Shown in pieces: positions 3,607-11,441 of a DNA stretch of 64,000 nucleotides (positions are counted from its first letter, which is position 1; every line of letters begins with the position of its first letter). This DNA is from Promethearchaeota archaeon. Lineage in GTDB: Archaea > Asgardarchaeota > Lokiarchaeia > Sigyniarchaeales > SOKP01. The position numbers and the translations under genes were made by a program. Where the stretch lies: NCBI GenBank assembly GCA_019058245.1, contig JAHPZJ010000013.1, forward strand, positions 233,166 through 297,165, read 5' to 3'. The notes below the pieces were generated by a model. That model was not told the origin of the DNA, ran no database searches, and worked only from the letters and a program-made list of their open reading frames with translations.

Positions 3607-3755
3607 AATTATACTTATTATAATAAACAAAGAAGCTTAGTATAGAATTCTAAAATTATAAATAAATTTAGCTTTATCTTTTTAACACTATGATTAATAT
3701 AGCTTTTTCTTTAATATATTCCAATAAATTTATATTTTAGAAAATTTGATTTTTT

Positions 3756-4094
3756 CTATATAAAATCATTTGAATCGAAACGATAAGCTGCACGAGTTAA
3801 TCCAACATAATTGTCACTAATCTTATAATACATTTTCCCATTAACAATTTTTTTCTGTAAATAACTATTTTTAATAGTATGGTTTATACCATGAATCATT
3901 GTACCCAAAGTAACTGCACCTATAAACCCATGTTGTTTTTTTGTGACTCTTATTAATTCTAGTTCAGAATGCCATTGACCATCTAAAAGAGCAATAAGTA
4001 TTTCATTTTTTATTGGAGTTTTGATGTCTTTAATTTTATTGAATAAATTAGAATAGCTTGGTTTATAAAAACTTTTATCATCTAAATTTGTCAT
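3756..4094 (-). CDS. Small hypothetical protein, probable winged helix-turn-helix
   Basis: 112 aa; helical core ILIALLDGQWHSELEL followed by beta-wing LQKKIVNGKMYYKI. Confidence 0.55.
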   Translation of the reverse strand: MTNLDDKSFYKPSYSNLFNKIKDIKTPIKNEILIALLDGQWHSELELIRVTKKQHGFIGAVTLGTMIHGINHTIKNSYLQKKIVNGKMYYKISDNYVGLTRAAYRFDSNDFI

Positions 4095-4212
4095 ATGTTA
4101 TACTCCTTTAAAACAAGTGTTTATAATATGAATAAATATTGAGATATATTATTTAATGAAATATAATATCTAGATGTTATTAAGATATATTTGGTATATA
4201 TAAGATAAAGAA

Positions 4213-5334
4213 TTATAGAAGATTTGGGGGAATTCCTTCATTAAAATATTTAGCTCGAGTAATCCAATTTTGGGAAAATTCTGGAATCATCGCTAATATA
4301 GATCCCCCAATCCATACTGAAAATGTACGTTCCATAGGAGCAATAATTCTTATAACTTGATTTTTTTTCTTTCTTCTTGCTAACTCTAATTCTAATTCTT
4401 GATAGATACGTGACTTTAGATTAGGAAACATGGATGATCCTCCCGAAAGAAAAATATTATTTAATAACTCTGGACGAACATCTAAATCACAAGCTTCAAT
4501 AACATCCATGATGGCAATATGTAAAGCATCTTCCTCTAATTCCGAAGTTGGTTTAAATAATATTTCTGGTACAATAAATCTTTCTTTATTGAGAGAAATA
4601 GTTGAACCATCTGGTAAAGAATATTCTTTTTCATATTGTTCACTCCGTTTTAGATCTTCTTTATAATCTAATGAAACAAAGCAAGCTTTTTCCTTTAAAA
4701 CTCTGACTAATTCTCTACGTATTGAAGAATCAACAGACCATCCAATTGATTCTAAAATTTGTTCCATATAATGTGTTAAAGCTCTGCCACCAATATCCAG
4801 AATGCGTACAGCATGCTCCAATTTGTATCCCTCATATATAGGAACAATTCTAGTATTACTGTCGCCTATCTCCACGATTAATCCTGTTTGAAATCCTCCT
4901 GAATAGAGAGTTAGCATTGAATCTAAAACAGGATAAAACGACATACATTGATAGCGTTCTAAGAATAATTCAAATATTTTCTCCAAATCTTTATATGGAA
5001 ATAACGGATGTACAGAAAATAATACATTTACTAATGTAGGATCTACTCGTAAATTATAAAAAATATATTCAATTATATTCTTGAAATGATTCCAATCAAC
5101 GACAATTCCTTTTTCGATAGGATGAAAGATTTTATATAAGCCTATTGATTGAATTTCATCTCCTACGTATAATTCATCTTCTCGAGACTTTTTAGATTCA
5201 TAATCAACATTAACATTTTGATACTTAGGTTTCCCAACCATGGTTAAAAAAACTTGACTAGGAGAATCCTCCCCTGCAAAACCTATTTTTGAAGAAAATT
5301 GACCAATGTCTAAAACAACTGTTAAATTTCCCAT
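4213..5334 (-). CDS. Actin-related protein (divergent Asgard actin family)
   Basis: Phosphate-1 DIGQFSSKIGFAGE, YVGDE, PIEKGIV, phosphate-2 EIGDSNT, VPIYEGY, LKEKACFV, YSLPDG, LSGGSSMFP, SVWIGGSILA. Confidence 0.93.
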   Translation of the reverse strand: MGNLTVVLDIGQFSSKIGFAGEDSPSQVFLTMVGKPKYQNVNVDYESKKSREDELYVGDEIQSIGLYKIFHPIEKGIVVDWNHFKNIIEYIFYNLRVDPTLVNVLFSVHPLFPYKDLEKIFELFLERYQCMSFYPVLDSMLTLYSGGFQTGLIVEIGDSNTRIVPIYEGYKLEHAVRILDIGGRALTHYMEQILESIGWSVDSSIRRELVRVLKEKACFVSLDYKEDLKRSEQYEKEYSLPDGSTISLNKERFIVPEILFKPTSELEEDALHIAIMDVIEACDLDVRPELLNNIFLSGGSSMFPNLKSRIYQELELELARRKKKNQVIRIIAPMERTFSVWIGGSILAMIPEFSQNWITRAKYFNEGIPPNLL

Positions 5335-5606
5335 TGGTTATTACAATTTAAATTATTTTGTAGACAATTAGCCTAAATAATACTATCTTATATATTATTT
5401 TAATTATTAAAAAAATATGTTTAAATTTTGAACAATAAAATCTTTAATTAACACTAAAAAAGTAGGGTTCTATTTTCAAAATATAATAAAGCTTCCCAAT
5501 TGATGGATAAAGAACTTTATTGAAAGAATAAAGAAAAAATTTAAAAAACAGATAAATATAGAGCAGATTCGAACTCAATAATCTTTTTTTATTAAAAATT
5601 AAGCTT

Positions 5607-6329
5607 TCATTCTCCCCTCATAATTTTCTTTAGACGATTTAGTTCATCTAACATTTCATCACGAAGAGATCCTAAACCTCCGCCTGTTTTTGGGGCTATT
5701 GCTGATGCTCCAGGGACAGGTGCTCCTGGAGGTTTTGGAAGGGTACCACCTGGAGGTCCAGGTCTTTTAGCAAATGAGGTTGGTGCCGCAGGGGGGCCAC
5801 TACTAGAAGGTGCACCAGGAGCTTTAGGAGGTCCACCTCCCGCTGGAGGTAATTTTGGAGCTGGAGGCAAACTTGGTTTTTTAGGGGGTCCACCACTTGA
5901 AGGCGCGGCAGGGGGACCTACTTTTTTAGGGGGTCCACCACTTGAAGGCGCGGCAGGGGGACCTACTTTTTTAGGGGGTCCACCACCTGGAGGTGCAGGA
6001 GCGCTAGGAACAGTTAATGCAGGAGCTGCTGGAGCGGTAGGTGTAGAAGCGGTACCTCCACCACTACTTAATAAGCTAAATAATGTACTGGCTGCTGCTG
6101 TTTTTGCCCCCTCACTTGTGGGAGCTACTATTTTTTTAGAGGAGGTACTAACAGTTTGAACTTCTTCAACAACAGAAACTTCCTTCAGATCCTTCTGAGC
6201 TTTAGCCAAAGATTTGATAAAATCATTTATTCCTTTAACTGTCTCTTCTAGATCATCAGCTAAAGAAGTTAATCCTTTTTTCATAAAATTAATAACTCTT
6301 TCAACTTTTTTCTGTTCTTTTGAAACCAC
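5607..6329 (-). CDS. Proline-rich protein with N-terminal coiled coil and C-terminal WH2/VASP-like helix
   Basis: GTG start; N-terminal heptad-like helix, ~130 aa Pro/Gly/Ala/Lys-rich linker, C-terminus GGGLGSLRDEMLDELNRLKKIMRGE; locally higher GC. Confidence 0.8.
   Translation of the reverse strand: MVSKEQKKVERVINFMKKGLTSLADDLEETVKGINDFIKSLAKAQKDLKEVSVVEEVQTVSTSSKKIVAPTSEGAKTAAASTLFSLLSSGGGTASTPTAPAAPALTVPSAPAPPGGGPPKKVGPPAAPSSGGPPKKVGPPAAPSSGGPPKKPSLPPAPKLPPAGGGPPKAPGAPSSSGPPAAPTSFAKRPGPPGGTLPKPPGAPVPGASAIAPKTGGGLGSLRDEMLDELNRLKKIMRGE
5877..5986. repeat. Exact 45-bp tandem repeat (~2.4 copies) encoding GGPPKKVGPPAAPSS
   Basis: ttagggggtccaccacttgaaggcgcggcagggggacctactttt at 5881-5925 and 5926-5970, partial third copy from 5971. 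Confidence 0.95.
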
Positions 6330-6628
6330 GTTCTACTCAATTCCTCTAATATTATTGAAAAATCGATAAATATTAAAAATACTAATTATAATGATTATAT
6401 TTTAATTATATTAATAAGTATATATAATTTTATTTCATTCTTATCTTATTCTATACTTAAGTACTAAAAATATCCAAAAAAACATTAATTAATTAAATAG
6501 CTAAACTAATAATATTATATAACATATTTCATTAGTAAGTTTAAAAATTAATTACATTATAAATTATAAAATATAATAAAAAACAAGACACGAATAATAA
6601 ATTTTAAAGTGCATTGGTGAAAAAAAAT

Positions 6629-6925
6629 ATGCCTAAACGTGAACTCTTCATAATAGGCTTAACATCTCGTTAGGTTTGTGAAAAAAGGGTATATGAAATT
6701 GTAAATGAGCTTAAAATACCTCTGATAGACGAAAGAGTCTATGATAAAGTAAATTTTAGTGCGGGATCAGCCATCGCTTCTGTAATCTTCAGATTTGAGG
6801 AAGATGAATCAGTTATCCGTGGCTTTCTCGGTTTGGCGGAATACTTTCATACAGTTGTAATTAAAAAGAAGGATGAATTTTATATTCCCCATGCCAGTAT
6901 TTTATTCAAATTGGAAAGTGCTTAA
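6629..6925 (+). CDS. Small uncharacterised protein with in-frame TAG at codon 15 (readthrough/pyrrolysine candidate or pseudogene); absent from ORF track
   Basis: GGTGA SD-like motif at 6616-6620, ATG at 6629: MPKRELFIIGLTSR*VCEKRVYEIVNELKIPLIDERVYDKVNFSAGSAIASVIFRFEEDESVIRGFLGLAEYFHTVVIKKKDEFYIPHASILFKLESA; TAG at 6671-6673, TAA at 6923-6925. Confidence 0.65.
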
Positions 6926-6985
6926 ATTAAATTTTTTTTACTTTTCTTTTATTATCGTATTTTTTCCTTTTTCAAAACTCCTTTA

Positions 6986-7708
6986 TCAGGTGCTATTTTT
7001 TGAATTAGAAATATAATATTTTGAATTATTAATAATCTTCAACACTTCAGATTCGGGTACATCATACCATTTTTTATATGCATCAGCAACAGCGAACCAC
7101 ATAACATCTCTTATATTTGGACAAAATATGTTATTAACTTCAGGTTTAATTCTTTTAAATGTTCCTAAGGGTGCTGTTGGTATTGCAATATAAATTTTTA
7201 ATGGTTGATACTTTTTCACCATATTTATTGCTGCTAGCATTGTATATCCTGAAGCTAATCCATCATCAAGAATAACTATATTTCTTTTATGAATTTTTTC
7301 CTTGTATGATTCTTTTAATCCTTCATTTTTATTATACAATTTTAGTCTACCCGAAATTTCTTTCTTTGTCAAATTGATTGAATATTGGATTTCCCTATCT
7401 GGTAAATTAAGTCTATTCAATAAAGACTCATTAATCAGCACAGTTCCATCTGTGGTTACTGCTCCAAAACCTGCTTCTGTATTATATGGTATTTTAATTT
7501 TTCGTACTATTAATATATCATAATTTATCTTAAATTTAGAACAAAATCCTTCTGTAATTGGTACGCCCCCATTAGGTATTGCATAACATAGAAATTGATT
7601 CACACTTTCTAAAATTAGATTTTTAACAGTAGGTTCTTGTTTTTCAATATATTCTGCTAGAATCTCTCCTGCTTTAAATCTAGATTCATAAGGAATATAG
7701 CTCTTCAT
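6986..7708 (-). CDS. Type I phosphoribosyltransferase family protein
   Basis: AIPNGGVP, VRKIKIPYNTEAGFGAV, PRPP loop VILDDGLASGYTM. Confidence 0.88.
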   Translation of the reverse strand: MKSYIPYESRFKAGEILAEYIEKQEPTVKNLILESVNQFLCYAIPNGGVPITEGFCSKFKINYDILIVRKIKIPYNTEAGFGAVTTDGTVLINESLLNRLNLPDREIQYSINLTKKEISGRLKLYNKNEGLKESYKEKIHKRNIVILDDGLASGYTMLAAINMVKKYQPLKIYIAIPTAPLGTFKRIKPEVNNIFCPNIRDVMWFAVADAYKKWYDVPESEVLKIINNSKYYISNSKNST

Positions 7709-8126
7709 TATTTCTAATTAGGATAATAGTAATTATAAAAATTATAGTTCTATGAAACCCTAAGTATCATCTTAATATATGAATATCTAATAATATAACT
7801 TAGATTTTAAAAATTAAAATAATAATAATTTTTTTTTTCTATCATTTGATTTGAGCCATTCTCTATTAATTTATTATAAAGATTTTGCTAAAATATATAT
7901 TATTCTAAATAAAATAATTTTATTTTTCTATTAGTTCATATAGAGGTAGAAATTTGAATCAAATCTAAATATATTAGGTGTATCTAAATACTTAAATGTA
8001 ATACTTTTCAATTAAGATATAAGAATGAGTTTATGAAAAAAATTTTAATAATTTTCGCAATACAATATTATAAAAAATGTTCGAAAAAGATTTATTAAAA
8101 TCAACGGATTCTGATGAGGAAGGAAT

Positions 8127-10527: not shown

Positions 10528-10923
10528 ATGCATGAATTTATTGAAGTAAAATTCATTTCTACTAAAAAGGGGAGGGGTGCATTTGCCAAGAAGGCAATTA
10601 AGAAAGACACTATTATTGATGTTGCATATGTAGTTCCTATTCCAAATAAAGAATATAAGAAAATATATAAAACAATTTTATATGATTATTGTTATATTTG
10701 GGAAGACCCAGACCATATGCCAGCATTTAGAAATGCTATAACTCTTAGTATAAGTCAATTTATTAATCATTCATTTATACCCAATCTCAAATATTTATAT
10801 GATTATGAGAATAAAGCAATAGAATTTTCTGCGATTAGGGATATTTCTGAAGGAGAAGAATTAACGGTAAACTATAATGGACTTGTTGATGATAAAAGTG
10901 CTATGTGGTTTGAAGTGGAATAA
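10528..10923 (+). CDS. SET-domain protein-lysine methyltransferase
   Basis: KKGRGAFA, FINHSFIPN, RDISEGEELTVNY. Confidence 0.9.
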   Translation: MHEFIEVKFISTKKGRGAFAKKAIKKDTIIDVAYVVPIPNKEYKKIYKTILYDYCYIWEDPDHMPAFRNAITLSISQFINHSFIPNLKYLYDYENKAIEFSAIRDISEGEELTVNYNGLVDDKSAMWFEVE

Positions 10924-11036
10924 TTAATTCTATGTTTCTTAAAGACTTGTCAAACCTCAGGTCAATCTTTTAATAAGAATCAGAAAAACCTATCAATTTA
11001 TATATTAAATGATACAATCAATAATTATTGAATTAG

Positions 11037-11441
11037 GTGAATTCTACGAATAACCTATTAGAAGTCAAATTTATTTCAACAAAAAAAGGAAGAGGTGTAT
11101 TTGCAAAAGAGAATATATCAAAAGGAGTGACCATAGATATTGCTTACATCCTCCTTATTCCTAATAATGATTGGAATTTAATCGAAGATACAATTTTATC
11201 TAATTACTCTTTTGAATGGGATGACCCTAAGTGCATAGGAGAATATGAATCGGCAATCTCTTTAAGTATTAGTCAACTTATAAATCATTCATATTATCCA
11301 AATATTAAATATATTTATGATTACAAAAATAAATGCATTGAATATATTACGCTTCGAGATATTACTAAAGGCGAGGAAATTACTGTAAACTATAATGGAG
11401 AACCTTTTGATGATTCACCTGTGGGATTTGAAGTAGAATGA
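11037..11441 (+). CDS. SET-domain protein-lysine methyltransferase (paralog)
   Basis: KKGRGVFA, LINHSYYPN, RDITKGEEITVNY. Confidence 0.9.
   Translation: MNSTNNLLEVKFISTKKGRGVFAKENISKGVTIDIAYILLIPNNDWNLIEDTILSNYSFEWDDPKCIGEYESAISLSISQLINHSYYPNIKYIYDYKNKCIEYITLRDITKGEEITVNYNGEPFDDSPVGFEVE

What the first reader, a model, noticed from the sequence alone, without database searches (positions are those of the whole stretch)
4213..6329. Candidate archaeal actin nucleation module: actin-related gene plus polyproline/WH2-like protein
Seen: a 240-aa protein (N-terminal coiled coil, long Pro-rich linker, C-terminal GGGLGSLRDEMLDELNRLKKI) lies immediately upstream of, and co-oriented with, an actin-related gene. 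Established: eukaryotic WASP/WAVE/WIP/Ena-VASP proteins place polyproline (profilin/SH3-binding) before a WH2 motif, an amphipathic helix followed by LKKT/V (e.g. MIM EDMLNAIRRGVKLKKT). The VASP F-actin-binding segment starts with GGGLMEEM. Inference: this could be an Asgard nucleation-promoting factor paired with an Arp-like partner. Caveats: the helix-to-LKK spacer is shorter than in canonical WH2, so the tail may be only an oligomerisation helix, and Loki profilins were reported not to bind polyproline.
Basis: partly seen in the sequence, partly recalled or inferred. Interest (0 to 1): 0.85.

Follow-up and report, generated by a model that had tools for sequence, protein, structure and literature searches.

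The report
Asgard proline-arm protein with docking helix
This gene encodes a real, strongly conserved but undescribed Asgard-archaeal protein (an anchor, a floppy proline-rich arm and a nearly unchanging end helix) that may tether actin, but it is not a true WH2/WASP protein, it stays beside the actin-like gene in only one archaeal family, and binding has not been shown.

Summary
In detail: a 240-aa proline-arm protein lies 272 nt upstream of an actin-related gene in a Lokiarchaeia genome. The 'NPF plus Arp module' reading is only partly supported.

The end helix (219-237) is nearly invariant and occurs, mostly once per genome, in 114 of 151 Asgard genomes, on soluble, single-pass and multi-pass membrane heads, and in tandem elsewhere. 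It looks like a docking motif. It fails the WH2 test (one-residue linker; T/V in 1 of 133) and better fits a WASP C or VASP FAB-type helix, weakly and mainly through a second Asgard family.

The ARP has degenerate ATP motifs, was found only in one order, is linked in one family only (usually across a deacetylase), and lies 44-272 kb away in closed relatives. The steadier neighbour is an 88-aa gene, here split by a tRNA-type intron.

Best guess: a tether that presents the helix to the main actin (about 40%). The L. ossiferum ortholog is not among the held rows of a published Lokiactin co-IP (weak). This scan found the same family, with the same reading, on other DNA many times.

The parts
5607..6329 (-). 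Proline-arm protein, 240 aa, soluble form of a pan-Asgard family
   Evidence: a match in 143 of 161 Lokiarchaeia genomes, apparently single copy
6168..6317 (-). N-terminal long helix, residues 5-54 (probable coiled-coil head; oligomerisation inferred)
   Evidence: pLDDT about 95; pN/pS 0.09
6066..6107 (-). Second short amphipathic helix, residues 75-88; candidate second binding motif
   Evidence: pN/pS 0.07
5685..6044 (-). Disordered Pro/Gly/Ala arm of GPPK-type repeats, variable in length
5844..5870 (-). Conserved LPPAPKLPP motif (154-162), like the VASP poly-Pro peptide; Lokiarchaeia only
   Evidence: 112 of 121 homologs; VASP peptide as printed in PMC8410842; absent from distant members
5763..5774 (-). 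Conserved FAKR motif (186-189)
   Evidence: 93-98% conserved in close homologs
5619..5675 (-). End helix 219-237, the pan-Asgard docking motif L[RK]xEMLxELxRLKx-phi-phi
5335..5606 (.). AT-rich gap with a T tract after the stop; where the PIG-L gene lies in most relatives
4213..5334 (-). Divergent actin paralog (40% identical to the genome's Lokiactin) with degenerate nucleotide motifs; order-restricted clade
3756..4094 (-). 112-aa protein without a Pfam or NCBIfam match; part of the family-level gene block
6629..6925 (+). Divergent 88-codon gene, the steadiest genomic partner of the soluble form
   Evidence: confident alpha/beta model, pLDDT 91
6654..6683 (+). 30-nt bulge-helix-bulge (tRNA-type) intron with an in-frame TAG
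   Evidence: central helix 4/4, inner stem 9 bp, 1 in 100,000 shuffles; folding z -4.0; relatives

Best explanation
The protein is an adaptor. Its head fixes it at a site, its proline-rich arm gives reach, and its end helix docks on a conserved cytoplasmic partner. In several other Asgard lineages the head is one or about ten membrane helices. In lineages with the soluble head, the 88-aa neighbour probably serves as the head's partner or anchor (inferred). The partner I think most likely is the main Asgard actin (Lokiactin), bound by one continuous amphipathic helix as arcadin-2 binds crenactin or as WASP C and VASP FAB helices bind actin. The result would be membrane tethering, clustering or capture of actin, not Arp2/3-type nucleation. 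Shown: architecture, conservation, distribution, mobility of the motif, synteny. Inferred: docking function (about 75%); actin as the partner (about 40% overall); role of the 88-aa protein (about 40%).
For: Motif in 114 of 151 Asgard genomes, 57 of 72 good ones, mostly once; every named hit is Asgard, like Lokiactin's range (PMC9834061). It persists in closed genomes where one actin was found. It sits after a Pro arm on unrelated heads, and in 2-3 tandem copies beside small-GTPase and zinc-finger domains, as short binding motifs do. Invariant residues lie on the hydrophobic face and both flanks. It fits the general C-domain pattern of PMC3298513 (three hydrophobics four apart, basic doublet, closing hydrophobic: L222, M226, L230, K234-K235, I236). 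Its profile aligns with the tail of a second pan-Asgard coiled-coil/Pro/helix family (hhalign 75.6%, E 2.4e-5), on whose profile VASP FAB (sequence from PMC10340426) scores as well as about 1 in 790,000 proteome windows and better than all 3000 shuffles. Precedent: arcadin-2 (PMC5173319). The 88-aa gene is found only in lineages with the soluble head and is within 3 kb in 28 of 34 distant genomes.
Against: No Pfam or PDB sequence match to WH2, VASP or any actin binder. VASP FAB scores only -5 bits on this family's own profile, a level about 320 of 790,000 proteome windows reach; the FAB comparison was chosen after looking. In the published L. ossiferum Lokiactin co-IP (bioRxiv 10.1101/2025.11.30.690169, Table S2), no tag that could be the ortholog (00617-00622) is in the held rows, which run from the most enriched down to log2 ratio -1.06; the second family's ortholog (tag 02219) is well expressed yet also absent from them. 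This is weak: the tag is inferred from gene order, the ortholog may be too rare to detect, and transient motifs are often lost. Any amphipathic helix resembles an actin-groove helix.
Confidence: 0.4

Rival explanations
1. Same adaptor, but the end helix docks on a non-actin hub conserved across Asgard (a GTPase, a longin/roadblock complex, an AAA ATPase or a division protein).
For: Tandem copies occur in proteins with a Ras domain, zinc fingers and by-eye longin-like ends; absence from the held co-IP rows; no link to the main actin gene in any genome checked.
Against: No candidate hub is co-located; the FAB/C resemblance and the VASP-like Pro motif point towards actin.
Confidence: 0.3
2. The end helix is a self- or hetero-oligomerisation segment, like the VASP tetramerisation coil, that clusters all proteins carrying it.
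For: Continuous amphipathic helix with a 3-4-4-3-4 hydrophobic spacing; no break before LKK.
Against: Only 19 residues; no match to Pfam's VASP tetramer model; near-invariance over the phylum, including M226 and the charged flanks, is more than coiled coils usually need (own knowledge); the head already offers a long coil.
Confidence: 0.15
3. One reading: a nucleation-promoting factor that works with the neighbouring ARP as a nucleation module.
For: ARP downstream on the same strand in 76 of 80 loci and linked in 23 of 23 family genomes that hold both. The ARP keeps a hydrophobic groove and has lost catalytic residues, as a template subunit might. ARP, 88-aa gene and this gene lie within 44 kb in one closed relative.
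Against: Topoisomerase and the 112-aa gene are as well linked (75 and 78 loci against 83 for the ARP). The genes are 44, 70, 100 and 272 kb apart in the sister family. The tail predates the ARP. No acidic/Trp region.
Confidence: 0.08
4. ESCRT adaptor: end helix as MIM1 and LPPAP as MIM2 for Vps4, or PSAP for a UEV domain.
For: C-terminal R-L-x-x-phi helix; a P[ST]AP motif in 66 of 121 homologs.
Against: MIM1 needs LxxRLxxL (own knowledge); here it is LxRLxxI. No ESCRT gene was recognised among the conserved neighbours. PSAP is not conserved.
Confidence: 0.05

Closest known systems
Arcadin-2 of Pyrobaculum calidifontis (crenactin regulator; PDB 5LY3; PMC5173319)
   Same: Archaeal; a small conserved C-terminal helix on a non-conserved linker; binds the actin hydrophobic groove without being a WH2.
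   Different: No sequence match; arcadin-2 lies in the crenactin cluster and is a shown depolymeriser, whereas this family is not linked to the main actin, has a Pro arm and has membrane-anchored forms.
Ena/VASP (poly-Pro site, FAB, tetramer coil; PMC10340426)
   Same: Oligomer coil, Pro-rich region and amphipathic-basic helix; LPPAPKLP resembles the VASP peptide; 222-233 aligns in register with FAB.
   Different: No EVH1, no GAB; the coil is N-terminal; the tail ends K-x-phi-phi instead of an Arg run; the second Asgard family is the better FAB look-alike.
WASP/WAVE/WASH VCA region (PMC3298513)
   Same: Pro-rich region before a C-terminal helix that fits the WH2 helix half and the general C pattern.
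   Different: No linker plus LKKT/V, no acidic region, no regulatory domains.
Asgard ARPs (PMC9834061; L. ossiferum UYP44126.1 is the probable ortholog by gene order)
   Same: Divergent actin paralog with patchy distribution; known since 2022, expressed below Lokiactin.
   Different: Function unknown; long-branch clade separate from Lokiactins; I did not place it against eukaryotic Arp2/Arp3.
cbf5 pre-mRNA intron of Crenarchaeota (PMC2738675)
   Same: Short bulge-helix-bulge intron in a coding sequence (for 6654-6683).
   Different: Asgard host, other gene, up to three intron sites; splicing not observed here.

Membership tests
WH2 domain | [quoted passage not shown] | tested here: met
   226-230 fit five of five; position six is N here, K or R in 12 of 32 tails
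WH2 domain | Linker of several residues between helix and LKK motif | tested here: not met
   One residue; AlphaFold2 keeps the helix continuous to 237
WH2 domain | L[KR][KR][VTA] | tested here: not met
   Fourth position T/V in 1 of 133 tails (F, I, L, Y instead); third position basic in 102
WH2 domain | Pfam PF02205 match | tested here: not met
   0 of 32 tails at E up to 10; whole protein and tail alone
WH2 domain | [quoted passage not shown] | not testable with these tools
   Needs a binding assay or a complex model; see Tried and rejected
WASP-family NPF | Proline-rich region with profilin-type runs | tested here: inconclusive
   34% Pro, but longest run 2 in 112 of 121; Loki profilins reported not to bind polyproline, disputed (PMC8410842)
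WASP-family NPF | Central (C) helix pattern | tested here: inconclusive
   Fits the loose pattern of PMC3298513, but three residues separate the third hydrophobic from the basic doublet; no profile match
WASP-family NPF | Acidic C-terminus, mostly with Trp | tested here: not met
   No W in any of 121 homologs; protein ends 3 residues after the helix
WASP-family NPF | An Arp2/3 complex to activate | tested here: inconclusive
   ARPC2 and ARPC4 models rang neither in five genomes nor in the controls
Ena/VASP | EVH1 domain and GAB | tested here: not met
   No globular domain; GAB scores at background
Ena/VASP | FAB motif | tested here: inconclusive
   FAB on this family's profile: -5 bits, 9 of 3000 shuffles; on the second family's: +15 bits, 0 of 3000
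Ena/VASP | C-terminal tetramerisation coil | tested here: not met
   No Pfam match; helix is 19 residues against about 38 (PMC10340426)
Arcadin-2 | Sequence homology and position in the actin gene cluster | tested here: not met
   No PDB sequence hit; not linked to the main actin
ESCRT-III MIM1 | (D/E)xxLxxRLxxL(K/R) after an ESCRT-III core | tested here: not met
   Leu-Arg spacing is one short (pattern from own knowledge); no Snf7 match
Actin family (gene 4213-5334) | Actin fold by profile | tested here: met
   PF00022 305 bits; best solved match HC1 actin 9wc4, E 1e-87
Polymerising actin / Lokiactin (gene 4213-5334) | Intact phosphate loops and catalytic Q137/H161 | tested here: not met
   First loop DIGQF-like in all 82 orthologs; Q137 is D or G where scored; H161 is R
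Eukaryotic Arp2/Arp3 (gene 4213-5334) | Orthology by phylogeny | not tested
   My tree held Asgard sequences only
Archaeal BHB mRNA intron (6654-6683) | Two 3-nt bulges around a 4-bp helix; removal restores the frame; EndA present | tested here: met
Archaeal BHB mRNA intron (6654-6683) | Spliced transcript observed | not testable with these tools
   see Tried and rejected

The most novel reading that the evidence does not exclude
This family and its paralog (own genome C25:70770-71237) are ancient Asgard actin-binding adaptors whose end helices are the archaeal forerunners of the eukaryotic WASP C / VASP FAB helix. Soluble and membrane-anchored forms couple Lokiactin to the membrane and promote its assembly, filling the reported gap in Asgard nucleation machinery.
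Probability: 0.2. Interest if true: 0.92.

Novelty: new variant of a known kind. Interest (0 to 1): 0.6.

Why it matters
Papers state that Asgard filament-nucleation machinery is undiscovered (PMC9433394) and that cultured Asgard cells crawl using Lokiactin with only profilins and gelsolins as known regulators (PMC13716822). A 19-residue motif kept in about three quarters of sampled Asgard genomes, often on a membrane anchor, marks an unknown core interaction whatever its partner. It can be tested at once with a synthetic peptide, and orthologs exist in the cultured species. If the partner is actin, it gives an archaeal origin for membrane-actin coupling and perhaps for the C/FAB helix.

Tried and rejected
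Complex prediction of Lokiactin with the tail: the tool did not fold it (it judged a chain eukaryote-like); the job was counted, I did not work around it, and it is no evidence either way. RNA runs: no RNA holder was listed for 3700-7000. Fold search of the 88-aa protein: best Z 4.4 (rmsd 2.9, 57 aligned), no Foldseek E below 0.26, atlas TM 0.66 to DUF5305 proteins; inconclusive. ESM Atlas features returned only the families' own clusters. Tail profiles against PDB and Pfam gave only chance hits; profile searches of the large protein set returned only Asgard among named hits, with candidates capped at 8000. ARPC2, ARPC4 and WH2 family searches rang nowhere, controls included; Pfam profilin missed the own genome. 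The sigma-70 scan is not apt for an archaeon. Two unannotated top co-IP hits could not be identified by mass. Amber read-through or pyrrolysine for 6629-6925 was rejected: orthologs lack all ten extra codons, the stop is TAG, TGA or TAA in different relatives, and some inserts shift the frame. Nine literature searches found no description of this family (among them); subscription papers are mostly not held. Co-variation of tail loss with actin divergence (two families, 0 of 12 genomes) was noticed but not used, because those lineages evolve fast overall.

Full report
Observation. The two ORFs are as described: 5607-6329 (240 aa) and 4213-5334 (373 aa), both minus strand, 272 nt apart. Homologs place the genome in Lokiarchaeia/Promethearchaeia. 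It has five actin-family genes, among them a typical Lokiactin on another contig. The upstream protein models as helix 5-54, helix 75-88, a disordered arm and one continuous end helix 219-237. The three helices are under strong purifying selection (pN/pS 0.07-0.09) and the tail is almost invariant in 121 close homologs. The arm is Pro-rich but not polyproline: the longest run is two in 112 of 121, with one conserved motif, LPPAPKLPP, in 112.

The family is much wider than the locus. It matches 143 of 161 Lokiarchaeia genomes. A profile of the tail finds 114 of 151 Asgard genomes, mostly once, and all named database hits are Asgard. The tail follows a Pro arm on different heads: a soluble long helix (Lokiarchaeia, Odinarchaeum and several other lineages), one membrane helix plus a helical hairpin (for example Heimdallarchaeum aukensis, usually beside rpiA), or about ten membrane helices. 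It also occurs in two or three tandem copies in proteins with Ras and zinc-finger domains. A short helix reused this way, with invariant residues on its hydrophobic face and both flanks, is most simply a docking motif for a conserved cytoplasmic partner (inference).

It is not a WH2. Against the pattern derived from 1080 WH2 sequences (PMC3298513), the helix half fits, but the linker is one residue and the last LKK position is T/V in 1 of 133 tails. Pfam and PDB profiles give nothing. There is no acidic or Trp-bearing end, so it is not a VCA either. The glycines that suggested VASP are not conserved beyond close relatives. It does fit the loose C-domain pattern, and it aligns with the tail of a second pan-Asgard family of the same layout (104 of 151 genomes; hhalign 75.6%). 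The VASP FAB sequence (PMC10340426) scores strongly on that second profile but weakly on this family's own. The link to actin-binding helices is therefore indirect and was chosen after looking.

The ARP link is family-level synteny. The ARP lies downstream in 76 of 80 loci, with a PIG-L deacetylase between in 49 and directly adjacent in 24. Topoisomerase and a 112-aa gene are about as well linked. In the sister family, including three closed genomes, the two genes are 44-272 kb apart. ARP orthologs were found only in these two families of the phylum sample and form a long-branch clade apart from Lokiactins. Its first phosphate loop is DIGQF-like in all 82 orthologs, Q137 is D or G, and H161 is R, so it is probably not a working ATPase (inference). 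Because the tail is kept in genomes with a single detectable actin, any actin partner must ancestrally be the main actin. The genes were probably neighbours in the order's ancestor, so a secondary tie to the ARP is not excluded.

The steadier neighbour is an 88-aa alpha/beta protein of no known family. It is present in 67 of 68 close loci and within 3 kb in 28 of 34 distant genomes. It was found in the lineages with the soluble head and, but for one genome, not in those with membrane anchors, which suggests that it partners the head (inference). In the window this gene (6629-6925) carries a 30-nt insert with a stop, forming a canonical bulge-helix-bulge whose removal restores the conserved protein. 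About ten other loci carry inserts at the same site, some with different, compensating stems; two more sites occur, with lengths that shift the frame. The genome encodes two EndA subunits. This is very probably an mRNA intron; the scan has reported such introns many times.

Published data. In L. ossiferum the ortholog lies between UYP44327.1 and UYP44329.1. Using the paper's tag table, it should be tag 00620 or close. None of 00617-00622 is in the held rows of the Lokiactin co-IP, which cover the enriched end down to log2 ratio -1.06; 00617-00620 are also absent from the held top of the proteome. The second family's ortholog (tag 02219, anchored by its neighbour's mass) is expressed but also not in those rows. 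This is weak negative evidence.

Mechanism and verdict. Most likely: head anchored to the membrane or to the 88-aa protein, arm for reach, helix docking on a hub; Lokiactin about 40%, another hub 30%, self-association 15%, NPF-plus-ARP 8%, ESCRT 5%. It would work like arcadin-2 (PMC5173319) or a FAB/C helix, but it is a member of none of these families. I found no paper describing it. The same family and reading were reached by other agents of this scan on other DNA; that is not independent support. Interest 0.6: a real, phylum-wide, undescribed motif that makes an open question testable with one peptide, but without binding evidence, and the nucleation-module claim is mostly not borne out.

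Noticed in passing
window 6629-6925 (+), intron 6654-6683: Hidden 88-codon gene split by a canonical bulge-helix-bulge intron; relatives carry introns at up to three sites (L112 three, L100 two, L099 one at the second site).
   Followed up: yes
G000 C25:70770-71237 (+) = L167:1271-1735: Second pan-Asgard coiled-coil/Pro/helix family (104 of 151 genomes); its tail is the better VASP FAB look-alike, and in one family its gene lies 8-9 kb from the first family's.
   Followed up: partly
P0163, P0184, P0187, P0195, P0210; G000 C24:69520-69975: The tail motif in 1-3 copies in proteins with a CxxC zinc finger, a Ras domain or a longin-like end (by eye).
   Followed up: partly
L001, L003, L005, L061, L068 and others, 5' end of the 88-aa gene: Many orthologs seem to start at ATT, ATC or ATA instead of ATG; a few (L006, L081, L105, L114) have an out-of-frame 5' end.
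   Followed up: no
P0126: The proline-arm protein fused to an N-terminal membrane helix and a C-terminal TIR domain.
   Followed up: no
L050:1592-2209 (-): A two-domain gelsolin gene 3.8 kb from the proline-arm gene in one genome; not seen in its relatives' loci.
   Followed up: partly
L214:2822-6783: Two tandem multi-pass membrane paralogs, each ending in the Pro arm and tail, next to rpiA.
   Followed up: no
G000 C10:46165-47382 (+): A recent second Lokiactin-like gene (83% identical to the main one) with intact nucleotide motifs.
   Followed up: no
window 10528-11441 (+): Two tandem small ORFs that look like SET-domain proteins by eye.
   Followed up: no
L049:8032-8805: The 112-aa gene downstream of the ARP is duplicated in tandem in one relative.
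   Followed up: no
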